Shown one piece after another: positions 8,950 through 64,000 of a stretch of DNA of 64,000 nucleotides. The stretch comes from Escherichia phage vB_EcoS_ESCO30. Made by a program: the position numbers and the translations under genes. The notes beneath the pieces were generated by a model. That model ran no database searches. It was not told the origin of the DNA and saw nothing but the letters and a program-made list of their open reading frames with translations. The stretch lies in sequence record NC_106513.1; one strand, 5' to 3'. Numbering within the stretch: the stretch's first letter is position 1; the number at the start of each line of letters is the position of its first letter.

Positions 8950-9210
8950 CTACACGTCTAGCTCAACAATCTCCCAATCATCCGCTAGAGCTTCATCTAG
9001 AGTTAATTCAACCTCTTCATCACTGGGCAGCAGCGTAGTATCTGAAGGCATCCACACGTACTGGCGTACAGTATTGCTGTCTACGTCAAATTTCAATAGT
9101 ACAGTATACTCTCTATTATTTTCCCAGCTATCCCGCTGGAGATATTTTACTTCCCCATCTTTAAGTAAATCAGTTAGTCTACTCACGGCGTTTTCCTTTT
9201 TCTTTATCAA
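8950..9210 (-). CDS. hypothetical acidic protein
   Basis: 86-aa ORF; no motif recognised. Confidence 0.4.
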   Translation of the reverse strand: MIKKKENAVSRLTDLLKDGEVKYLQRDSWENNREYTVLLKFDVDSNTVRQYVWMPSDTTLLPSDEEVELTLDEALADDWEIVELDV

Positions 9211-9883
9211 GTTTCAAGGCGGCCTTAACAGCTTCGTTAATCAACGTAATGACTTCTTCCCGAGTCCACTTATACCCCAGAGACTTTACATCAACCCCTA
9301 ACTTTTCCAGGTGTTTAACAGAAGCCAGTTCATAATTCATATAATGAACGTTCTGTTGTTTGCCTTCTGATAGAAGCCATACACGGTAACAACCAACAGG
9401 GTTATCCATTGCTTTTTTGATTTCACCGATACACTGGTATCCAGGAACCCAAACAAGCTCACCTACCTCAAATTCTTCTGCTACAGCATCGTCAGGAATA
9501 ATTGGTGGATTCAATGGATCTACAATATCGTTCAAACGAAGTAGAGCACCATATCGTTCCAGAACAGATTTAACCATTGCTACAGAGCGATAATTACGAT
9601 CGGCAATCTCTTCAAAAGAATCACCAGATAAATACTGCTCAATAACGTTGGCTAACTCAATGCCTTCAATGAGTGTGCCACGTTTCTTTTTCTTCATCTC
9701 GGCAACTTGAATTTGGCGATCTTGCCACTCTTCAATCATCCTTTCCATAGTTGGATTGGAGGATACTCCGAGCATTTCACATGCTGCTTTCTTAGTACCA
9801 CCGTTCTCCAGATGCTCTATAACTTTTTTAAAGACTTCATCCGGGATTTCATGGATATGTTTCTTTCTGCGAGAACCAGCCAT
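9179..9883 (-). CDS. putative HTH DNA-binding protein
   Basis: N-terminal HTH-like segment GGTKKAACEMLGVSSNPT; own promoter. Confidence 0.5.
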   Translation of the reverse strand: MAGSRRKKHIHEIPDEVFKKVIEHLENGGTKKAACEMLGVSSNPTMERMIEEWQDRQIQVAEMKKKKRGTLIEGIELANVIEQYLSGDSFEEIADRNYRSVAMVKSVLERYGALLRLNDIVDPLNPPIIPDDAVAEEFEVGELVWVPGYQCIGEIKKAMDNPVGCYRVWLLSEGKQQNVHYMNYELASVKHLEKLGVDVKSLGYKWTREEVITLINEAVKAALKLDKEKGKRRE

Positions 9884-9914
9884 ATTTAAACTCCTCTCTC
9901 AAATTTATGAATCT

Positions 9915-9943
9915 ATTATACAGAAAAATTTTCCTGAAAGCAA
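9915..9943 (-). promoter_or_regulatory. sigma70-type promoter (minus strand)
   Basis: minus-strand -35 TTGCTT (9938-9943), 17 bp spacer, -10 TATAAT (9915-9920), GAGAGGAG SD before ATG at 9883. Confidence 0.65.
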
Positions 9944-9951
9944 ATAAATTT

Positions 9952-10185
9952 TTACGATTCCTTGAGCAAAGAAGAAAGTTCAGCATATACTTTATCTAAT
10001 TCAAACCCTATGCGAAGAGATACGTTAGTCCTCCGTTGTTTAAGTAACCACTCGGATATGTTAGGGATGCCAGCTAGTCTGTGTGGTACCACCCTACATA
10101 GCTTTTCCGAAGTATCGTAAGCAGGAACTTTACGCTCTTTTACTGGAAACTTCCTTGTTTCCCATTTTTTATTCTTCACTGTCAT
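9952..10185 (-). CDS. hypothetical protein (start uncertain)
   Basis: ATG at 10185 with GGAGAG SD; track ORF extends to 10293 but overlaps HNH gene. Confidence 0.35.
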   Translation of the reverse strand: MTVKNKKWETRKFPVKERKVPAYDTSEKLCRVVPHRLAGIPNISEWLLKQRRTNVSLRIGFELDKVYAELSSLLKES

Positions 10186-10699
10186 ATCTCTCCGAGGGAT
10201 TAAATTCACCAAACAGCTCTTTAACTCCCCTAAGGTATAGCTGATGGGCTTCTTCCGGGGTATCTCGTCTACCAAAAATATGCTGCTTTCCATCGCAGTA
10301 AGCGTAGGCCATATACCTATTACCTCGTTTTACAACTCCAGTGAATCCGGTAGAATTAGTAGAACACTTCTTATTCTTTCCATTTTCGGAATAGGTAGCC
10401 TTACGTAAATTATCCCACAAGTTATTTAAACTATCACCGTCTTTATGGTCGATAGTTTTATCTCCAGGATCTTCGCCTGTCTTTATAAACCAGATTATTC
10501 TATGGGCTAAGTAAGCTGTCCGCTCCCCATTTATCGTAAACTCTAGTTGTCTCCCAGTTTTCATTTTGGAGCCCGCTACCTTTCCCTTCCTTGGGCCAGA
10601 TAACCAAATTAAGTCCCCAGTACTTTCGTCATACCTAAGCTTTTCTAGGATAAATGCCATAGGAGGCATTGGTTTATGCGTCTTCATTAGTTGCTCCAA
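10169..10699 (-). CDS. HNH homing endonuclease
   Basis: AYLAHRIIWF...IDHKDGD...NNL...NL HNH-like motif; diverged paralog of other HNH ORFs. Confidence 0.65.
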   Translation of the reverse strand: MEQLMKTHKPMPPMAFILEKLRYDESTGDLIWLSGPRKGKVAGSKMKTGRQLEFTINGERTAYLAHRIIWFIKTGEDPGDKTIDHKDGDSLNNLWDNLRKATYSENGKNKKCSTNSTGFTGVVKRGNRYMAYAYCDGKQHIFGRRDTPEEAHQLYLRGVKELFGEFNPSERYDSEE

Positions 10700-13538
10700 G
10701 TTCTGACAGTACTTCTTCTGCCATAGCCTTCTCTTCCTCTGTCATGAATTTGAAAGGAATCGGCATACACTCGATTTTACAATAGGTTCTGTACCAGTCT
10801 ACTATATTTTCAGTGTTCATATCCTTACCAATACCCATCATACCAAGATACATTCTAGCATATTTTGGGTTAGCACTCTGACCTGTTTTAAGGAAGAAGT
10901 CTTTCTTCTTACCTTTCAGAGCTTCTATGAAGGGTTTAATGGTTACATTTGAACACTTCTTAATGTCTTCCCAGAACATCTCGTGCATCTTATGGAAGAA
11001 TGCAGCTCGATCGTTCGGCTTATCTTTGATATATTGTTCAACATGCTCAACTGTTACATCTTTAATAGACTCAAGATGATAATAGCGAACAAGAAGTAGT
11101 TTAGCTTCATACGCATCCGCATGACGTGGAGCACAATAATCTGGAGTTGAATGCAGAATAGCTTTGATTCGCTCTTCTGTGTACTCTTTACCAGCACCTT
11201 CGATAGTTCCCCAGCTTTCACTGAAAATATCAATAGTTGCACCTTGATCAAGTAAGTAATAACGTAAAGTACTAGTATAGTTCCTAGATTCCAGCTCCCT
11301 GCGACGTGCGTATAATTGCTGTGCTAATTCCAGCCAGCCTTCATCAATATTATATTGTTCAGAACCTGCGGAGAATCCACTCGTAGATTTATCAATAAAA
11401 TAATAGATGTTCTGGGCACCACGGTCGCGCCTGATTGCTTGGAAACGCATGTTCGGCGCTTGATTACTGGTTCTAGTAATAACAAATACGTTATCAAAAT
11501 AGTTGAAGTCAACGCCACTCGTTACGGATGGACTACATAATAAACAGTCAATCTGTTGGTCAATTAGCTCATTAGTTGTATAATCCAGAATACGTCGAAT
11601 ATCCACATCTGAGGTGGAGTTTGAATGGATTTCCTTAACTAACGCACCAGTATTACGACGTAGTGCCATACCCTTCTCATTCAGCTCATCAGGGCCACAA
11701 TCAGATACCAGAATAGATTTCTCACCCATCTCTAGAGAAGTCTGAAGTGCAACCCAAATACTGGATTCATCAGGGAACTCATAAGCATGAGCTTTTGACA
11801 GCATCTTACGGTGATGATTATAGAATGCAACTGGTTTATCGAACTCAATCAAAGAACCATATGCTTCAATTGTTTCCGCACTAATATCACCATCGGATAG
11901 TATAATGATTTTTGCAGTTGCAAGAATATCCCGAAGAACCTGAATACACTCGCGACGTTGCTTAACAACCGGGGCGAATAATAGGTCATTCATTACTGCA
12001 TCACATTCATCAATAAAGATTGCATCAATTTGACCAATAAAACTTTTGAACTTATGTAAAGAGTGAATAGTTGTGGACATACGATCAATAGCACCACGCT
12101 TGAAATTAAGCATATCTACAGACTTATCATATTGTCCTGCACTAAATTTCTTGGCATTTGAAGATACCAGTGCTCTAGTATTTGTAATTGCTAAGAAATT
12201 ACCTTTAATAACCCCTGAATCTAACCAACGCACAACCGCCGTGGTTTTACCTGTGCCTAGACTTGCTTTTACAAAAGTCATATGACCTTCTGGTGGCACA
12301 GTGTTTAATTTCAAGAAATTATCTGTTTCTAGAGAGTTAGTTTCTAGCTTTTTAAGTGGAATACCTTTTAAAACATCAGGTATATCACGTTTAGAATTAT
12401 TAACAAATGCTTTCAGAGCCTGTTTTCGACCGTTATTAAAGTAATCTTGAATATTACGACTATTATCTTTAGTTGCAATATACTCAGATAAAGCTGGGCG
12501 GATCTCCTTCTCTAGCCAACCAAAATCTACACCATCCTCTAACGCTCGGTGATAGAGTTTAGGAATAATACGTAGATACACTCCATCTTCAGCTTCTTCT
12601 AGTTCGCTGATAGTTTCCTCTACTTTATCAGAGGCAGCTTTTTTACCTTTAATTTGATCGAGTAAAGAGTAGAATTCCTCTTTAAACTCTCCTCTAGTTG
12701 TTTCATAGTCAACTAGATTATTAGGTAAATTTACTTTTGAGCCTTTAACAAATACCAGACGTGAAGCACCATCCGCTTTAAACGGATCAACTATACCATC
12801 AGTAAATAAAGGATCTGCAAAATAGTGGAGCTGTACTGAAGAGTAATAAGCTAAGTCGGCAATATCAAAACCATACTTTTGTCTACTACTTTCGTTGATA
12901 GATGTAAATAAGAACTTGATCTGACCCTGTGTAACTTTAACATTAGATTCTAGTATTAAGTGCATTCGGATACCTGGTTTTAGTCCAGCCGAAGACGATG
13001 CATGAGCAATAAACCCTGCATCAAGAGGAAACATATCCTCACTAATACTATTCAACATCCTAATAATATGACGCGCCATGCCAACAAGATCAAACTTGTT
13101 ACAACCTCCTGTATCTACAATACCATCCACATCCATTGCGATTATATGACTTGGATTAGATACATTAAAGTTGCCCTTCTTACGTCGCACATTATTTTTA
13201 GGTGCAAGACATCGACCTCGTACCACAACGATATGAGGGTCAGACGTTAAACGTCTCATAAGAGGAAGCATTTCTACTAGGGTTTGAGGATCAACTTCAT
13301 CAATTACATCAAACTTGAAGGGCATTGAAGCTGGTTTACCTTCAGGATGCTTTGAGGAAAATCTTTTAGCAAAAAGATAATCTTCTGCTTTAACTTCTCG
13401 CCAATTGCCTGTGGCTAAATCGCGATGAAATCCTGCATGACCTTGTAGGATTGAAAACACAACAATACTCCTGTGTTGGAAATGAAATAAATTTTCTTTA
13501 GGACTATTCAGAAAGAATAGAACAACTGTTACTGTCAA
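10674..13538 (-). CDS. putative primase-helicase / replication initiation NTPase (start uncertain)
   Basis: Walker A SLGTGKTT and Walker B IFIDECD; N-terminal DxD-containing region; track ORF starts at TTG 13538, alternative ATG at 13325. Confidence 0.6.
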   Translation of the reverse strand: MTVTVVLFFLNSPKENLFHFQHRSIVVFSILQGHAGFHRDLATGNWREVKAEDYLFAKRFSSKHPEGKPASMPFKFDVIDEVDPQTLVEMLPLMRRLTSDPHIVVVRGRCLAPKNNVRRKKGNFNVSNPSHIIAMDVDGIVDTGGCNKFDLVGMARHIIRMLNSISEDMFPLDAGFIAHASSSAGLKPGIRMHLILESNVKVTQGQIKFLFTSINESSRQKYGFDIADLAYYSSVQLHYFADPLFTDGIVDPFKADGASRLVFVKGSKVNLPNNLVDYETTRGEFKEEFYSLLDQIKGKKAASDKVEETISELEEAEDGVYLRIIPKLYHRALEDGVDFGWLEKEIRPALSEYIATKDNSRNIQDYFNNGRKQALKAFVNNSKRDIPDVLKGIPLKKLETNSLETDNFLKLNTVPPEGHMTFVKASLGTGKTTAVVRWLDSGVIKGNFLAITNTRALVSSNAKKFSAGQYDKSVDMLNFKRGAIDRMSTTIHSLHKFKSFIGQIDAIFIDECDAVMNDLLFAPVVKQRRECIQVLRDILATAKIIILSDGDISAETIEAYGSLIEFDKPVAFYNHHRKMLSKAHAYEFPDESSIWVALQTSLEMGEKSILVSDCGPDELNEKGMALRRNTGALVKEIHSNSTSDVDIRRILDYTTNELIDQQIDCLLCSPSVTSGVDFNYFDNVFVITRTSNQAPNMRFQAIRRDRGAQNIYYFIDKSTSGFSAGSEQYNIDEGWLELAQQLYARRRELESRNYTSTLRYYLLDQGATIDIFSESWGTIEGAGKEYTEERIKAILHSTPDYCAPRHADAYEAKLLLVRYYHLESIKDVTVEHVEQYIKDKPNDRAAFFHKMHEMFWEDIKKCSNVTIKPFIEALKGKKKDFFLKTGQSANPKYARMYLGMMGIGKDMNTENIVDWYRTYCKIECMPIPFKFMTEEEKAMAEEVLSELGATNEDA

Positions 13539-21379: not shown

Positions 21380-23710
21380 ATGAGCCATCGCATTGAAAAA
21401 GTAATTAAACGTGACGGTACTGTAGAAGACTTTGCTCCTGAAAAACTCAATGGTTGGGCAGAGTATGGTTGCAAAACAGTTGATGTAAGTTGGTCAGCCA
21501 TTACTATGGCTGCTCAAAAAACTCTGCCTAAAGGGGTTGTAGATTCCGATACTCTGATGGATGCGTTAATTAAAGCTGCTGAAAGTCTTATCAAAGATAA
21601 TCCAGCATACGACGTACCAGCAAAGGAACTACGTCTTGCGCAGATGCGTAAACGTCTTTATGATTCCTTCGAACCACCTTCTCTACGCTTCTTCCACGAT
21701 CATATGGTTAGTGTAGGTGCATGGGAAGACATGAGTGCATGGATTACCGATGAGCAGTTTGAGGCTTTGAATCAGGTTATTGACCATGATCGCGACCGAC
21801 TTTTTACTAGTGGTGGACTGAAGCAGTTCTTTGATAAGTATTCCCGTCGTAACATAGCCACTGGTGAAATTTATGAAACTCCGCAGTTTGCCTACATGGG
21901 TATGGCAATGGCGATGCTATCTCAACCTAACTGGACAATTCTAGATGCAATCGACCTCTACAACGCAATGTCACTCCACAAAATCAACGTTCCTACGCCG
22001 CCACTGGTTGGTCTGCGCTCTAGTGACCGTGGATTTGCTAGTTGTTGCCTCGTTGATTCCACTGACACATTGGATTCAATCGACACAGCCGAGCACATCG
22101 TCTTCAAAATGGTCGCAGCCAGAGCGGGAATCGGGTATCATCTTGAAAGCCGATCAATTGCTGATCCGGTGCGAAATGGGGCATTCCCGCATTCCGGAAA
22201 ACTGCCATATTATCGACACATTGACCGCTCAGTAAAGGCCAATACTCAGCAAACTCGTGGTGGTTCTGCTACAGTGTCTTATTCATACTTTGACCCTGAA
22301 ATCATTCAATTGATGCAGGTTAAGCAGCAACGTGCTACAGATGAGAATAAAATCGATAAGATGGATTATTCTCTGAGCTTCAACAATCTTTTGTTAAAAC
22401 GTTATCTGAAAAATGAAGATATTACGCTAATGTCATACTTCTATGCTCCAGAAGTTCATGAAGCGTTTTATAGTGATGACGAGGCTAAATTTGAAGAAAT
22501 CTATGTGGCAGCGGAGAAACGTGTGGCATCTCTTACAAAGATCGACCACGAAGGAAAAACAGTTCCAGCAGCTCCTAAAGTCTCTGCAAAAGAAATCCTA
22601 GATACTTGGCTACGTATCCGAATGGAAACAGGACGTATGTATGCCCACCACATCGGGGAATCTAATCGTCACGGTAACTTCCTTGATCCGATCCGTATGA
22701 CAAACCTTTGTGTTGAGATTACTCAGCCTACACGCCCGTTCCATCATATCACGGAACTGTATAAAACAAAAGAACAACTTGATCAAATGAAGCCGGAGGA
22801 TATTGGTGAAGTATCTCTGTGTAACTTAGGTGGTGTTGTACTTGGACGCATGGAATCTCTGGCTGAGTGGGAAAAAACTTGCTACATCCTTCTGAAATTC
22901 GTTGATACAATTATCGAAATTCAGGATTATCCGTTCCCAACTATGGAATATACGGCTAAGAAACGTCGTAATGTTGGTATTGGCCTAATGAACGCAGCAG
23001 GTGCAATGGCCGCAGAAGGTCTGGCTTACGAAGGTATTGAAGCCCGTAACTGGATTCACCGTGAGGCTGAAAAACTGTCCTACTTCCTGCATAAAGCCTC
23101 TGTACGCCTAGCTAAAGAACAGGGTGCATGTGAGTGGTTTGATCGTACTAAACCATCTAAAGGAATTCTGGTAATCGACACGTACAAGAAAACTGTTGAT
23201 GAACTGGTATCCGTAGGTCTAGAAATGGATTGGGAGTCTCTACGTGCAGATATTCTGAAATATGGTATGCGTAACTCTGTTCTGACTGCTCAGATGCCGG
23301 GAGAAAGTTCTTCTGTTCTGTTAGGTGTTACTAACTCTATCGAACCACCACGTAAGATTGTATCTATCAAGGGTAGTGCAGTAAATAAAGTAATTGCAAT
23401 TGCTCCAGGTGCAACCGATTGGGAAACGTTAATGAGCTATAAACTGGCTTATGATGTAGATCGTATCGAGTGGATCAAATGGGTAGCAACTATGCAGAAA
23501 TTCTTCAGTCAGTCTATCAGTACGAATATGTACTATGACTACACCAAGTTTGAGAATGAAATCATTCCTGGCCCAGTAGTAGTTCGTGATTTCATGACTG
23601 CTGTTAAGTATGGGTGGAAAACCTTCTACTACGCAAACTTCAACACCGAAAATGGTGGGGGTGCTGGAGAAGAAGCAGCCGGTTGTGCATCCGGTGGTTG
23701 TACTATTTAA
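21380..23710 (+). CDS. nrdA: ribonucleoside-diphosphate reductase large subunit (class Ia)
   Basis: 776 aa; N-terminal ATP-cone, NLCVEITQP catalytic motif, C-terminal CASGGC pair. Confidence 0.9.
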   Translation: MSHRIEKVIKRDGTVEDFAPEKLNGWAEYGCKTVDVSWSAITMAAQKTLPKGVVDSDTLMDALIKAAESLIKDNPAYDVPAKELRLAQMRKRLYDSFEPPSLRFFHDHMVSVGAWEDMSAWITDEQFEALNQVIDHDRDRLFTSGGLKQFFDKYSRRNIATGEIYETPQFAYMGMAMAMLSQPNWTILDAIDLYNAMSLHKINVPTPPLVGLRSSDRGFASCCLVDSTDTLDSIDTAEHIVFKMVAARAGIGYHLESRSIADPVRNGAFPHSGKLPYYRHIDRSVKANTQQTRGGSATVSYSYFDPEIIQLMQVKQQRATDENKIDKMDYSLSFNNLLLKRYLKNEDITLMSYFYAPEVHEAFYSDDEAKFEEIYVAAEKRVASLTKIDHEGKTVPAAPKVSAKEILDTWLRIRMETGRMYAHHIGESNRHGNFLDPIRMTNLCVEITQPTRPFHHITELYKTKEQLDQMKPEDIGEVSLCNLGGVVLGRMESLAEWEKTCYILLKFVDTIIEIQDYPFPTMEYTAKKRRNVGIGLMNAAGAMAAEGLAYEGIEARNWIHREAEKLSYFLHKASVRLAKEQGACEWFDRTKPSKGILVIDTYKKTVDELVSVGLEMDWESLRADILKYGMRNSVLTAQMPGESSSVLLGVTNSIEPPRKIVSIKGSAVNKVIAIAPGATDWETLMSYKLAYDVDRIEWIKWVATMQKFFSQSISTNMYYDYTKFENEIIPGPVVVRDFMTAVKYGWKTFYYANFNTENGGGAGEEAAGCASGGCTI

Positions 23711-32564: not shown

Positions 32565-33361
32565 ATATTCATAAATTAGAGAACAGCGAGCCGATTACGC
32601 TGAGTGCAGAATCCCAACCGGAGCGCATTGAATAGAGTCGGTGGGTTAGTTGGAAAACTAGTACACAGGGGGCGGCAATCCCGGTTAGTGGCTAGAACGT
32701 GTAAAATGAGGCGTCTGAAACCTCTCCCCTAAACTCTTCTCTAATTTACTGATAGTGGGGTGTGGAAATCACTTATGTAGTAACACTGCCGATCTAGTAT
32801 AAACGGTATTATCAAGCCGTAACTGGTGGAAGATGTAGGTTCGAATCCTACGGTCGGTAAGAACTGGATAACTGGTGCTTTTAACGTAAAAGCTTCCGAG
32901 GTTAGTTGCGCACTGCCTAAACCACGCGGTAGTTGGTTCCAGACTAACCAACCAGTCTGCTGAATAGTTTTATTACGATTTAACTATGTCCAGGCATAAA
33001 GAAGAACTTTAGAAGGTATTCTAGGTAGTGAAGTTTTTCCTCCATATCGGAGTAGTTTTTCAAGCTATCCACAAAGTGGGAAATGATGGCATGAGAGATG
33101 CCACTAATGGTGCACAATAGCACAGGTAATTCGCGATAACCCCTGTTGAGTAGCAGCAAAAAGGTGGGGAGTCATGACCCTAACCTAACCGAGTCCTCAG
33201 TATACCGCAGGACATAACCACTAAGTCACCTTGACTTAAACTGGAAAATAATAGACGTTACTGTATTTTGTCTTGAAATACTTAATGAGTGAGACTTATG
33301 ACTCTCCCGGTATCGTCTGTATTTTTAAGAGTTTTTACGAGAGTTCTTAAAAATACTTAAA

Positions 33362-59934: not shown

Positions 59935-60138
59935 ATGCAAGTATATGTCCTTACCAGAGATATAACTGAGTATAATCAGGATGGTGAGTATTTTGTAAAA
60001 GTATTCGCTGAAAAGCCAAGTAAACAACAATTATTAGATGTTGGAGTACCGGAAGACCAAGCTAAGTGTTTACTACAAGATAAAGAGTTTACTGGAGATG
60101 CTTACGAATGTTTCTACCTTAACTGTGAGACTATTTAA
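59935..60138 (+). CDS. hypothetical protein
   Basis: 67-aa ORF. Confidence 0.4.
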   Translation: MQVYVLTRDITEYNQDGEYFVKVFAEKPSKQQLLDVGVPEDQAKCLLQDKEFTGDAYECFYLNCETI

Positions 60139-60139
60139 T

Positions 60140-60586
60140 ATGAGAGAGAAAGTAAATGAATTATTAATCGAGGAAGCTAACAACTTTCCAATAAATAGGT
60201 TCATAAAATCGGATGGGTCTATTAATAGAACTAAAATTAAGCAACTACATCCCGACTTTCAACAAGAAGCACTAAACCTTATATTTATCAAGAAAGCTGT
60301 TGCAGCTCATGGAGCTTTCTTCGGGTATGAGCGTGTAAATTATAAGACAATGCAGCAGCAAGTCGAGATCTATTGCCCAGATCACGATGGTTATTACTGG
60401 CAAACTGCTAGATCTCATTTAGAAGGGCATGGATGTCGACTGTGTGCACACAAGGTTGTGCAGCGTGTCACGGATTATGGAACTTATACCATACCAGCAT
60501 GTTACCATAAATTTGTAATTGACGATAATCACATAGTTTGGTATAATAAGTTTTCAAAGCTAAGAATGGAGATAAGTAGTGAGTAG
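60140..60586 (+). CDS. hypothetical Cys/His-rich protein
   Basis: ATG 60140; CPDHDGYYW...HLEGHGCRLCAH cluster. Confidence 0.45.
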   Translation: MREKVNELLIEEANNFPINRFIKSDGSINRTKIKQLHPDFQQEALNLIFIKKAVAAHGAFFGYERVNYKTMQQQVEIYCPDHDGYYWQTARSHLEGHGCRLCAHKVVQRVTDYGTYTIPACYHKFVIDDNHIVWYNKFSKLRMEISSE

Positions 60587-62340: not shown

Positions 62341-63051
62341 ATGAATAAAGCAGAAAAACTAAAGCACCTTATTGCGCTAGCAAAAGAATCAAACCAGAAA
62401 TGTTTCTCCGAGCTAACAGATGAACAAAAATATGCGGTAATGTTCCTATCAGATTATCGTCCTGCACGTTGGGAAGCTCATAAAATTAAATATGATAGGA
62501 ATAGCTCAAAGGTAGTATTAGCAGGCTCCTACGTTGAAACTAATAAAGCATTAAAATCTTTAGATCCTAGTGCGAAAGGTATTAATGCTAGTTCTATTCT
62601 AGTATTGATTGATGAAGTGCTCCCAGCCTATGAAGAAACAGATTTCTTAACAGCATTACTTAGTGATGATAAGATTCCGAGAAAGAAGGGAGAATTTGCA
62701 CATCTTCCTGAGCTAGAGAAACAGAAACCTTCTCTTAATAAGGAAGAAACGTATCGTGGAATTGGCATGACTATAGCGAGTTTGCACGTAGCCATTACCA
62801 AAGATCTAGAATTAACTCCTACAGAGAAAGCCATTCACTATGCGATTCATAGAGATAAAGAAGCATTCAAATCATTATGTAATTCGCTAGGATTGCCAAG
62901 TACTACGATTATTAATCTAGAGCCAGAATATAAGAGGTACGTGAAAGGAACTCTCTCTTACGAAGAGACAGGATCTGCTATGTCCTATTTAGCAACTTAT
63001 ATCTACTTCGCATCTCTTGGTATCAAACTCAAAGCCAAAGTAAAAGAATAA
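62341..63051 (+). CDS. hypothetical protein
   Basis: 236-aa ORF, last coding gene before repeat region. Confidence 0.5.
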   Translation: MNKAEKLKHLIALAKESNQKCFSELTDEQKYAVMFLSDYRPARWEAHKIKYDRNSSKVVLAGSYVETNKALKSLDPSAKGINASSILVLIDEVLPAYEETDFLTALLSDDKIPRKKGEFAHLPELEKQKPSLNKEETYRGIGMTIASLHVAITKDLELTPTEKAIHYAIHRDKEAFKSLCNSLGLPSTTIINLEPEYKRYVKGTLSYEETGSAMSYLATYIYFASLGIKLKAKVKE

Positions 63052-63058
63052 ACGTTAC

Positions 63059-63087
63059 TTGACGTTCATCCATCTGCATGTTATAAT
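63059..63087 (+). promoter_or_regulatory. near-consensus sigma70 promoter with no ORF downstream
   Basis: -35 TTGACG 63059-63064, 17 bp, -10 TATAAT 63082-63087; about 200 nt downstream has no SD/ORF. Confidence 0.55.
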
Positions 63088-63356
63088 AATCACATAGATT
63101 AAAAACAACTCTTGTTTTGAACTCTAGGGGCGATGATTATTACACGAGACTTCGTTAACTCTTTGCGACCGAGCAACAGGGGTATGACAGTCGAGGACTT
63201 ACGTAATTAATCACGCGCCCCACGAGTAAGCACACATGTAATGGGGGCTACTTTACTTTTAATTTACCTTATAATATTTAAAGGCAATATCTGTGTTCAA
63301 GATGATACACCTGTTGCCGCTCTTCTGCTAGGATGGCACAACACTTTCTTCTAGAC

Positions 63357-64000
63357 TCCTAAGTTTCTAGGAATACTCACTCTTTCTAGGGCGGTTCTCC
63401 TAAGTTTCTAGGAACATATACTAGGCGGTTAATACAGGGCGGTTATAGGGAGGGCGGTTATTTCTAGGAGACATTTTTTGAAAACACATTCCCAGAAATT
63501 ACTGTCGGATTTGCACACTGACAAGAGTTTAAAAACTGGTCGGATTTGCACAAACGCCTAAGTTTTTAGGAACTCTTACTCTCCTGAAAATAGCAGCATT
63601 ATTTCGGGCCGAAGGCCCATGATTGCCTGAGTTTTTAGAGCCACAAGAATTTTCACTTGTCAAGCTATTTTGCCCCGTTTTGCTAATAAAATTTTACTTT
63701 TTCTGCACCTATCTCAAATCTTCCCAAATTATCTCAACTCTTCCCCAAAATCCCCGCAAATCAGGTGCTCCGCACCAATCCTGCGCCCACATCCTTCTAG
63801 CCTCCCAAATTTTTCTCGCTCTCTCATCTTCTCCTCAAACCTATACAATCACACACCCTCTCATCGAAGTCACAAAAATCTTGTCGGATTCGCACATCCC
63901 ACCACATGTCGGATTTGCACATACTCTAGCTAATTCCACAGGATTGATGCGCAGCATCGGATTGCTGGAGTTTTTGGGAAAATTCATTGTCGGATTTGCA
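63357..64000. repeat. non-coding array of short direct repeats (continues beyond window end)
   Basis: TGTCGGATTTGCACA x5 (63503, 63540, 63881 variant, 63908, 63986), CCTAAGTTTCTAGGAA x3-4 (63358, 63399, 63557, degenerate 63626), GGGCGGTT x4 (63389-63460), GGGCCGAAGGCCC palindrome, pyrimidine-rich tract 63700-63870. Confidence 0.8.

What the first reader, a model, noticed from the sequence alone, without database searches (positions are those of the whole stretch)
63059..63290. Near-consensus promoter transcribing an ORF-free structured segment
TTGACG-17-TATAAT (63059-63087) points into about 200 nt with no SD or ORF but with long-range complementarity (AGGGGCG at 63125-63131 with CGCCCC at 63208-63213). 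It may produce a small non-coding RNA or a leader transcribed into the repeat array.
Basis: seen in the sequence. Interest (0 to 1): 0.45.

Follow-up and report, generated by a model that had tools for sequence, protein, structure and literature searches.

The report
Unannotated structured small RNA gene, T5-like phages
Next to the left terminal repeat of this T5-like phage, a near-perfect bacterial promoter drives a roughly 165-base non-coding RNA whose hairpin shape, but not its sequence, is kept in every T5 relative examined; it appears in no genome annotation or RNA family database checked, and its function is unknown.

Summary
The window is a T5-like phage (Tequintavirus, closest to VEc33), read in reverse of the standard T5 orientation. 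TTGACG-17-TGtTATAAT sits exactly at 63059-63087, 7 nt after the last early gene and 580 bp before the left-terminal-repeat boundary (63637|63638). Downstream lie three hairpins: P1 (63095-63126), a long P2 (63127-63221) and P3 plus a U-rich tail (63224-63266).

In 54 related loci the promoter hexamers and the 17-18 bp spacing are kept while the spacer varies (17 versions). The P1-P2-P3 layout recurs in at least 10 sequence types, including T5, BF23 and Yersinia phiR201.

- P2's interior is the least conserved stretch of the region, yet it stays paired. On a model-fitted alignment, 29 of 47 pairs show compensatory changes and 93.6% of cells are paired, against 37-47% when partners are slid.
- The + strand RNA folds better than the - strand in 38 of 38 variants.
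- P3 is a canonical terminator in BF23 and phiR201 but weak here.
- No ORF is conserved. There is no Rfam hit and no annotation in the T5 or BF23 records.

Verdict: most likely a new, independently transcribed structured sRNA family. Expression is untested and function is unknown. A leader that reads into the repeat junction is not excluded.

The parts
63059..63064 (+). -35 hexamer TTGACG
   Evidence: TTGACA or TTGACG is kept in 24 of 26 distinct promoter versions from relatives (TTGCAT in the BF23 group), always 17-18 bp from the -10, with 17 different spacer sequences.
63079..63087 (+). Extended -10, TGtTATAAT
   Evidence: The -10 is TATAAT in 22 and TATCAT in 4 of 26 promoter versions, always preceded by TGn. 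phiR201 has TGtTACAAT.
63088..63100 (+). Palindrome AATCACATAGATT spanning the predicted start (+1 near A63094). It may be an operator or part of the 5' structure.
   Evidence: Read from the sequence. It is AATCTCATAGATT in 19 promoter versions. T5-type phages have AACTCTATGAGTT, with both halves changed. The start site is inferred from the -10 position and was not measured.
63095..63126 (+). P1 hairpin: inner stem 63102-63108 with 63112-63118, outer stem 63095-63098 with 63123-63126
   Evidence: MFE folds. Three inner pairs covary: AU/CG, CG/UA and AU/UA.
63127..63221 (+). P2, a long imperfect hairpin. Its base is GGGGCG (63127-63132) with CGCCCC (63216-63221); its interior is hypervariable.
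   Evidence: The interior, 63139-63198, is only about 0.45-0.5 identical across 39 relatives, yet it stays paired. Between types C and D, 7 pairs changed on both sides. Across types, 24 of the 33 P2 pairs did so.
63224..63253 (+). P3 hairpin, terminator-like. It is weakened in this phage by two A.G mismatches (CACACAU in place of CUCUCAU).
   Evidence: In most relatives the stem is CUCUCAU-gaa-AUGGGGG, with two U.G pairs that are possible only in + strand RNA. The scan calls a canonical terminator in BF23 and in phiR201, but not in the window.
63254..63266 (+). U-rich tail (TACTTTTAATTTA), the likely 3' end region
   Evidence: There are 5-9 U in the 12 nt after P3 in nearly all of the distinct variants. 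A poorly conserved AT-rich spacer follows (63259-63273, 0.62 identity).
63274..63363 (.). Highly conserved non-coding block directly downstream (context; it may or may not be transcribed from this promoter)
   Evidence: 0.83-0.98 identity across 39 relatives, T5 included. Its 9-codon ORFs show non-synonymous variation and have no SD.

Best explanation
This is a stand-alone gene for a structured non-coding RNA, about 160-175 nt long in this phage.

Host sigma-70 RNA polymerase would start at the near-consensus extended -10 promoter, near A63094. It would transcribe P1, the long P2 hairpin and P3, and stop, at least partly, at the P3 hairpin and U-rich tail.

The gene is the first non-repeat feature beyond the injection-stop/terminal-repeat region. 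It would therefore be among the first second-step-transfer DNA to meet RNA polymerase.

Selection has kept the helices while the sequence of P2 has been replaced many times. No antisense target was found. I therefore infer that the RNA acts through its shape, as a ligand, decoy or substrate for a double-strand-RNA-binding or other RNA-binding protein (RNase III is the obvious host candidate), and not through a base-pairing seed.

Shown: the promoter, its conservation, the conserved structure, the strand and the absence of coding. Inferred: the transcription start and end, and the mode of action.
For: Identity and position:
- The window is a T5-like phage. The element lies between the last leftward early gene (stop codon at 63049-63051) and the LTR boundary at 63637|63638.

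Promoter:
- It is rare by chance.
- Relatives keep the hexamers, the TGn and the 17-18 bp spacing, with 17 different spacers. This includes T5, Spc35 at 12/12 and phiR201.

Structure:
- z-scores are -3.5 (window), -4.95 (Spc35), -6.2 (T5) and -3.3 (phiR201).
- Types C+D: 47 pairs, 99.5% of cells paired against 36-49% when slid, and 10 pairs with both-sided change.
- A covariance model built from types C and D finds exactly one copy in the window (123 bits). It also finds types A, B, E, F and G. On that alignment 29 of 47 pairs have both-sided changes, and the covariation score is 0.356 against 0.110 in shuffles, with 0 of 500 shuffles reaching it.

Strand:
- The + strand MFE is lower than the - strand MFE in 38 of 38 variants, by 10 kcal/mol on average.
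- The one-sided changes are UA<->UG and GU<->GC.

End of the transcript:
- P3 plus a U-rich tail occurs in all types and is a canonical terminator in BF23 and phiR201.

Not coding, not known:
- No ORF is conserved.
- There is no Rfam match in the window or in 7 other loci representing 7 sequence types.
- The element is not annotated in three T5 records or in BF23.

Independence of the transcription unit:
- T5 and phiR201 carry a hairpin between the upstream gene and this promoter.
Against: - I had no transcript data, so the start, the end and the abundance are all predictions.
- In this phage P3 has two A.G mismatches and the terminator scan does not call it. The scan also does not call it in T5 or Spc35. 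Much transcription may therefore read through.
- Many compensatory changes separate whole 'types' that may have been exchanged by recombination. The number of independent events is therefore smaller than the number of pairs. In addition, the cross-type alignment was fitted to the model.
- The T5-type version is not detected by the covariance model. Its homology rests on position, promoter and architecture.
- The shape-based mode of action is inference only.
Confidence: 0.6

Rival explanations
1. Promoter-proximal leader. The structured RNA is the 5' part of a longer transcript that reads through the leaky P3 into the conserved block, the DRD/iss repeats and the terminal repeat. The point of the element would then be transcription of that DNA. 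Possible roles are R-loop or primer formation, opening the junction for concatemer processing or repeat duplication, or antisense RNA against the convergent pre-early genes. The hairpins would modify or pause the polymerase.
For: - P3 is weak here and is not called as a terminator in the window, T5 or Spc35.
- The DNA immediately downstream, up to and across the LTR boundary, is 0.83-1.0 conserved and non-coding.
- There is a 13-nt complementarity between P2 (63173-63185) and the conserved block (63305-63317).
- From my own knowledge, not tested here: T7 needs transcription into its concatemer junction for DNA maturation, and the put RNA of phage HK022 is a promoter-proximal pair of hairpins that makes the polymerase resistant to terminators.
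Against: - A G-run hairpin with a U-rich tail is kept at the same place in all types, and is a canonical terminator in BF23 and phiR201.
- A poorly conserved AT-rich spacer separates P3 from the conserved block.
- RNA-to-block complementarity is not significant across types.
- There is no + strand gene downstream for several kb.
Confidence: 0.2
2. The 3'-end module of the leftward early operon. P2 would be an RNase III processing or mRNA-stabilising hairpin, and P3 the operon terminator or insulator that keeps early transcription out of the terminal-repeat junction. The promoter would be incidental or secondary.
For: - In this window only 7 nt separate the upstream stop codon from the -35, and no terminator lies between them. 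Operon transcripts must therefore enter the element.
- P2 is a near-continuous duplex longer than 20 bp, a plausible RNase III substrate (substrate rule from general knowledge).
Against: - The promoter is the best-conserved part of the unit. It is kept even where a homing-endonuclease gene has been inserted just upstream.
- T5 and phiR201 have their own hairpin between the upstream gene and the promoter.
- P1 covaries although it has no obvious role in a 3' end.
Confidence: 0.12
3. A DNA-level element with no RNA function: a cruciform or single-strand DNA hairpin, a protein-binding site, or the target or footprint of the neighbouring homing endonuclease.
For: - The inverted repeat also folds on the - strand of the window (z = -3.0).
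- A homing-endonuclease gene sits next to it in several relatives.
- The surrounding region is full of DNA repeats and palindromes.
Against: - The + strand folds better in 38 of 38 variants.
- G.U wobble pairs and UA<->UG changes would be A.C mismatches on the other strand.
- A conserved consensus promoter points into the element, and a terminator-like hairpin follows it.
Confidence: 0.05
4. The element encodes a small protein: the 25-aa ORF at 63133-63210, the 37-aa ORF at 63241-63354, or the 8-codon MKWGxxYF ORF seen in relatives.
For: The ORFs exist. AGGGG precedes the first ATG. MKWGxxYF* recurs in types B (Kenya-K33), C, D and E.
Against: - The first ORF varies from 11 to 35 codons with unrelated sequence, and type E lacks its ATG.
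- The window reads ATG-TAA where others read ATGAAATGG. T5 and types F and G lack the mini-ORF.
- The AGGGG-to-ATG spacing is 2 nt.
- Single-base indels in the G-run shift the frame of the 37-aa ORF.
Confidence: 0.03

Closest known systems
Enterobacterial and phage small RNAs with a sigma-70 promoter and an intrinsic terminator (general class)
   Same: A short ORF-free unit made of a promoter, stem-loops, and a terminator-like hairpin with a U-rich tail. It is about 150-200 nt long and conserved across a phage group.
   Different: No Rfam family matches. No conserved single-stranded seed or target was found. The sequence of the main helix is replaceable, which is unusual for base-pairing sRNAs.
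Phage T7 RNase III processing hairpins (from my own knowledge)
   Same: A long, imperfect intergenic hairpin in a lytic coliphage early region. Its duplex is long enough for RNase III.
   Different: This element has its own conserved consensus promoter plus flanking P1 and P3. Cleavage was not tested.
phi29 pRNA (from my own knowledge; Rfam holds a pRNA family)
   Same: A structured RNA of about 170 nt, encoded beside the genome end and made from a strong early promoter by host polymerase.
   Different: No match to any Rfam model, pRNA included. T5 packages DNA with a conventional terminase, so no RNA requirement is known.
Adenovirus VA RNA and 6S RNA (functional analogies only, from my own knowledge)
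   Same: Abundant viral or bacterial RNAs that act by shape as protein decoys. Their helices are conserved although the sequence drifts.
   Different: No homology. 6S RNA's large central bubble is absent and the 6S models do not match. No partner protein is known.
T5 injection-stop-signal / Repeat Region 3 (Davison, bioRxiv 10.1101/866236; annotation of AY587007)
   Same: It belongs to the same long non-coding stretch at the right edge of the left terminal repeat, conserved across T5-like phages.
   Different: It lies outside Repeat Region 3. T5 coordinates are about 10,560-10,800, whereas Repeat Region 3 spans 9194-10409. It is in unique DNA, is not a repeat, and that work does not mention it.

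Membership tests
Sigma-70 promoter (extended -10 class) | -35 TTGACA-like hexamer, a 16-18 bp spacer, -10 TATAAT and TGn upstream | tested here: met
   11/12 plus TG at 63059-63087. The expected number of such sites is 0.28 per window. The hexamers and spacing are conserved while 17 different spacers occur.
Sigma-70 promoter (extended -10 class) | Transcription actually starts there | not testable with these tools
   No transcript data were accessible. An RNA-seq data set for the Tequintavirus Bas33 exists (ENA PRJEB101990, cited in PMC13250531).
Structured non-coding RNA | Base pairs are maintained by compensatory substitutions in homologues | tested here: met
   10 of 47 pairs, 99.5% of cells paired; 29 of 47 pairs, covariation score 0.356 against 0.110, with 0 of 500 shuffles reaching it. 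Caveats: few independent events, and the cross-type alignment was fitted to the model.
Structured non-coding RNA | The structure is specific to the transcribed strand | tested here: met
   The + strand MFE is lower in 38 of 38 variants. There are U.G pairs in P3 and UA<->UG changes in P2.
Structured non-coding RNA | No conserved reading frame | tested here: met
Rho-independent terminator (P3) | A GC-rich stem directly followed by a U tract | tested here: inconclusive
   The scan calls it in BF23 and phiR201. It does not call it in the window, T5 or Spc35. A hairpin of -8 to -17.5 kcal/mol with 5-9 U in the next 12 nt is present in most variants.
Any Rfam 15 family (including 6S, pRNA, Y RNA-like and known phage sRNAs) | A match to the covariance model | tested here: not met
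   No hit at E <= 1 over the element in the window or in 7 other loci representing 7 sequence types.
Trans-acting antisense sRNA | A conserved single-stranded seed complementary to a target | tested here: not met
   Only chance-level matches within the 64-kb window. No match in E. coli genomes or plasmids. The rest of the phage genome was not searched.
RNase III substrate | At least about 20 bp of near-continuous dsRNA, and cleavage by RNase III | not testable with these tools
   The duplex length is compatible. Cleavage needs an experiment.
T5 iss / Repeat Region 3 repeats | Membership of the annotated direct, inverted or palindromic repeat families inside the LTR edge | tested here: not met
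   The element is single-copy and lies in unique DNA, 370-580 bp outside the LTR boundary.

The most novel reading that the evidence does not exclude
The RNA, or the act of transcribing it, is a working part of T5's unusual DNA biology or of its counter-defence. One reading is the first transcript of second-step-transfer DNA, acting at the terminal-repeat junction in completion of injection, concatemer processing, repeat duplication or replication priming. The other reading is a fast-evolving, shape-based decoy for a host RNA-binding defence or processing protein, with the hypervariable P2 reflecting an arms race.
Probability: 0.15. Interest if true: 0.85.

Novelty: new member of a known kind. 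Interest (0 to 1): 0.55.

Why it matters
T5 is a classical model phage. Its two-step DNA injection, its resistance to restriction and the way its terminal repeats are processed remain unexplained. Its relatives are widely isolated for biocontrol and therapy: 365 records in the phage collection match this segment.

A conserved, strongly promoted, structured RNA gene sits at the exact edge of the injection-stop and terminal-repeat region. It has gone unannotated in every record I inspected. It gives a concrete new object to test in those open questions, and it should also be added to genome annotations and to RNA family databases.

The contrast between a fixed shape and a freely replaced sequence makes it a clean case for studying how structured viral RNAs evolve.

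Tried and rejected
- **Rfam.** Searched at E <= 1 on the window and on 7 other loci; nothing lay over the element. The weak PrrF and rliI hits lie elsewhere, inside the LTR of Spc35.
- **Antisense target.** Within the 64-kb window only 9-13-nt chance matches appeared. A second TTCAAGATGATAC at 22135 is a chance 13-mer.
- **Host mimicry.** There was no similarity in 5,426 E. coli genomes, and only a 27-nt chance hit in plasmids.
- **RNA-to-conserved-block pairing.** A 13-nt complement exists in this type, but duplex energies are not better than shuffles in 13 representatives. A first attempt timed out.
- **Small proteins.** Rejected for lack of conservation.
- **Minus-strand promoter-like site at 63300-63271**. 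Its -10 is not conserved in relatives.
- **L045.** This IMG/VR hit to the degenerate anchor pattern is an unrelated GC-rich contig, and the match lies inside an ORF.
- **First exact-pattern scan of viral contigs.** It found only one locus because relatives differ at one base.
- **Literature.** Davison's iss analysis, the BF23 genome paper, Klimuk et al. on T5 promoters and the Rad anti-retron paper do not mention the element. Klimuk et al. state that the known T5 early promoters carry ATATT in the discriminator; this one has AATCAC. Gentz & Bujard 1985 could not be read.
- **Neighbouring proteins.** They have no known function.
- **T5 nick motif.** A look at the T5 7.9% nick site (CCCTGCGC) showed no convincing relation to the conserved CACGCGCC in P2.

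Full report
**What the window is.** Megablast of 62900-64000 finds 444 phage records, all T5-like (Demerecviridae). The best is Escherichia phage VEc33 at 95%, and the match is on the minus strand at about 9.7-10.8 kb of those genomes. The window therefore runs opposite to the standard T5 map. It carries a block of 22 tRNA genes, as T5-like genomes do. [quoted passage not shown] The finding lies in unique DNA between the last leftward early gene (236 aa, 62341-63051, unknown function) and that boundary. The 'repeat array' downstream is the T5 DRD/iss repeat region.

**The observation.** TTGACG (63059-63064), a 17-bp spacer and TATAAT (63082-63087) with TG at 63079-63080 are exactly as stated. 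Promoter-like sites in general are no more frequent here than in shuffles (22 against 20.3). Sites with at least 11/12 matches plus TG, however, are expected only 0.28 times per window on both strands, and two are seen. They close a 95-nt imperfect hairpin. The predicted transcript 63094-63262 folds at -45.2 kcal/mol, z = -3.5. Two short ORFs do exist, of 25 aa and 37 aa.

**Comparative anatomy.** I collected 56 loci from the phage collection, IMG/VR and metagenomes. All T5-like loci carry the same unit between the last early gene and a highly conserved downstream anchor (TTCAAGATGATACACC). One locus, L045, is an unrelated contig. The unit has four parts.
1. **Promoter.** The hexamers, the TGn and the 17-18 bp spacing are kept while 17 different spacer sequences occur. 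Spc35 has a 12/12 promoter, T5 has TTGACA-17-TGtTATCAT and phiR201 has TTGACG-17-TGtTACAAT.
2. **P1.** A small hairpin.
3. **P2.** A long composite hairpin of 90-150 nt.
4. **P3.** A hairpin ending in a G-run, followed by a U-rich tail.

The interior of P2 falls into at least ten mutually unalignable sequence types. They are A (window, VEc33, JLBYU40), B (BF23, Kenya-K33), C (DT57C, Sepoy), D (SE3, KPP2018), E (Spc35, Eps7, slur09), F (UTK0009), G, H (T5 itself), I, and J (phiR201). P2's interior (63139-63198) is the least conserved stretch of the whole non-coding region, at about 0.45-0.5 identity. The promoter and 5' end score 0.87-0.89, and the DNA from 63274 to the LTR boundary scores 0.83-1.0 over most of its length.

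**Is it a structure?** Every type folds into the same P1-P2-P3 layout. z-scores are -4.95 (Spc35), -6.2 (T5) and -3.3 (phiR201).
- For types C+D (12 distinct sequences), RNAalifold predicts 47 pairs, 10 of them with both-sided changes.
- On that structure 99.5% of cells are paired, against 36-49% when the 3' partners are slid. The covariation score is 0.218 against 0.103 in shuffles, with 0 of 500 shuffles reaching it.
- Within the T5 type, three further pairs changed on both sides.
- A covariance model built from types C and D finds exactly one copy in the 64-kb window (63093-63273, 123 bits, E = 1e-26). It recovers types A, B, E, F and G, finds type I only marginally, and misses the T5 type.
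- On the resulting 12-sequence alignment, 93.6% of cells pair, against 37-47% when slid. Both-sided changes occur in 29 of 47 pairs, and the covariation score is 0.356 against 0.110, with 0 of 500 shuffles reaching it.

There are two caveats. That alignment is fitted to the model. Many of the changes separate whole types, so the number of independent events is smaller than the number of pairs.

**Which strand?** The RNA of the promoter strand folds better than its complement in 38 of 38 distinct variants, by 10.1 kcal/mol on average. The common P3 stem, CUCUCAU/AUGGGGG, contains two U.G pairs. The one-sided changes in P2 are UA<->UG and GU<->GC. All of these would be A.C mismatches on the other strand. 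This argues for a + strand RNA and against a purely DNA-level palindrome.

**Where does it end?** P3 is a textbook intrinsic terminator in BF23: a 12-bp stem followed by TTTCTTTATA. The scan also calls it in phiR201. In most variants it is an 8-bp stem with two G.U pairs, followed by 5-9 U in 12 nt. In the window and its closest relatives, two U-to-A changes create A.G mismatches, and the scan does not call a terminator. Termination is therefore probably partial here. After the tail comes a poorly conserved AT-rich spacer and then the highly conserved block, which looks like a boundary between two functional units.

**Not coding, not known.** The 25-aa ORF changes length (11-35 codons) and sequence between types and is absent in type E. 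The 37-aa ORF is shifted by single-base indels in the G-run. An 8-codon ORF, MKWGxxYF, recurs in four types but reads ATG-TAA in the window and is absent in T5 and in types F and G. Rfam 15 gives nothing at E <= 1. The three T5 GenBank records and the BF23 record, whose authors annotated predicted promoters, show no feature here. Davison's analysis of the iss region ends at T5 coordinate 10409 and does not mention a promoter or RNA. Searches of the held literature for T5-like small or non-coding RNAs found nothing relevant.

**How it probably works.** The best-supported reading is an independent sRNA gene. Three points favour independence. The promoter is the most conserved part of the unit. 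It is retained even where a homing-endonuclease gene has been inserted between the upstream gene and the -35. T5 and phiR201 have a separate hairpin upstream of the promoter. The gene is the first unique feature beyond the LTR, so it would be among the first second-step-transfer DNA available to host polymerase; this timing is an inference. Its discriminator (AATCAC) differs from the ATATT that Klimuk et al. (PMC7472727) report for known T5 early promoters.

The helices are preserved while P2's sequence is freely replaced. I found no antisense target in the window and no host look-alike. I therefore infer a shape-dependent action, such as a protein ligand, a decoy or an RNase III substrate. 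A semi-conserved pyrimidine-rich bulge on the 3' side of P2 (ACUCAC, CUUCC, ACUUAG, ACUC, UUUCA) may be a recognition point. I read it by eye from MFE folds only.

**Rivals.**
- A leader that reads through P3 into the conserved block, the repeats and the LTR. This fits the weak P3 here and the striking conservation downstream. The conserved terminator-like P3 argues against it.
- The 3' module of the early operon. The conserved promoter and the covarying P1 argue against it.
- A DNA-level element. The strand asymmetry argues against it.
- A small protein, which is essentially refuted.

**Verdict.** It is a new family of a known kind, a phage-encoded structured small RNA. Its position beside the T5 injection-stop and terminal-repeat junction is intriguing. 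Expression and function remain to be shown.

Noticed in passing
window 63274-63363, continuing to the LTR boundary at 63637|63638 and beyond: Non-coding DNA that is 0.83-1.0 identical across most of its length in 39 T5-like phages, T5 included. That is well above the sRNA body or the 3' end of the upstream gene. It is CTAG-rich (CTAGGA and TCTAG motifs) with GGCGGTT repeats. Its function is unknown; candidates are protein-binding sites for junction processing or injection.
   Followed up: partly
window 63355-63383, 63396-63424, 63554-63582; also 63496-63517, 63531-63552, 63875-63896, 63900-63921, 63981-64000: Two repeat families. CCTAAGTTTCTAGGAA corresponds to T5 'direct repeat D'. (T/G)GTCGGATTTGCACA contains a DnaA-box-like TTTGCACA. 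Both straddle the LTR boundary, matching the iss Repeat Region 3 described for T5.
   Followed up: partly
window 63052-63058, compared with L009, L010, L017 and L018 at 808-1164 and L007 at 807-1164: In DT57C, Sepoy, Lindwurm, Kenya-K37 and JLBYU40 (frameshifted there), a homing-endonuclease gene (GIY-YIG / P-TflXVII-like) is inserted exactly between the upstream gene and the -35 of this promoter. The window has only 7 nt there. This may contribute to the mosaic distribution of P2 and P3 variants.
   Followed up: partly
window 63088-63100: The palindrome AATC(A/T)CATAGATT overlaps the predicted start site. T5-type phages have AACTCTATGAGTT, with both half-sites changed together. It could be an operator for a dimeric regulator or part of a 5' structure.
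   Followed up: no
window 63173-63185 and 63305-63317: A 13-nt, 92% complementarity between the 3' arm of P2 (GCAACAGGGGTAT) and the highly conserved block (ATACACCTGTTGC). Type G instead carries AUCUUGAAC, complementary to the adjacent GUUCAAGAU. This is not significant across all types by duplex energy against shuffles.
   Followed up: partly
window 63606-63618: A GGGCCGAAGGCCC hairpin lies 19 nt before the terminal-repeat boundary. It is invariant in all relatives examined and is a candidate signal for the terminase cut.
   Followed up: no
window 60519-60547: A second TTGACG-17-TATAAT promoter with TG (11/12). It lies inside the 3' part of ORF 60038-60586, a protein with a weak HNH-endonuclease-like PHROG match, just upstream of the next gene.
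   Followed up: no
window 32787-32860: ARAGORN calls a tRNA-Ser with the unusual anticodon ACT within the cluster of 22 tRNA genes.
   Followed up: no
L014 2314-2450, minus strand (Spc35 LTR): Weak sub-threshold Rfam hits (rliI at E = 0.012, PrrF at E = 0.21) inside the iss region. They probably reflect a hairpin and not a true family member.
   Followed up: no
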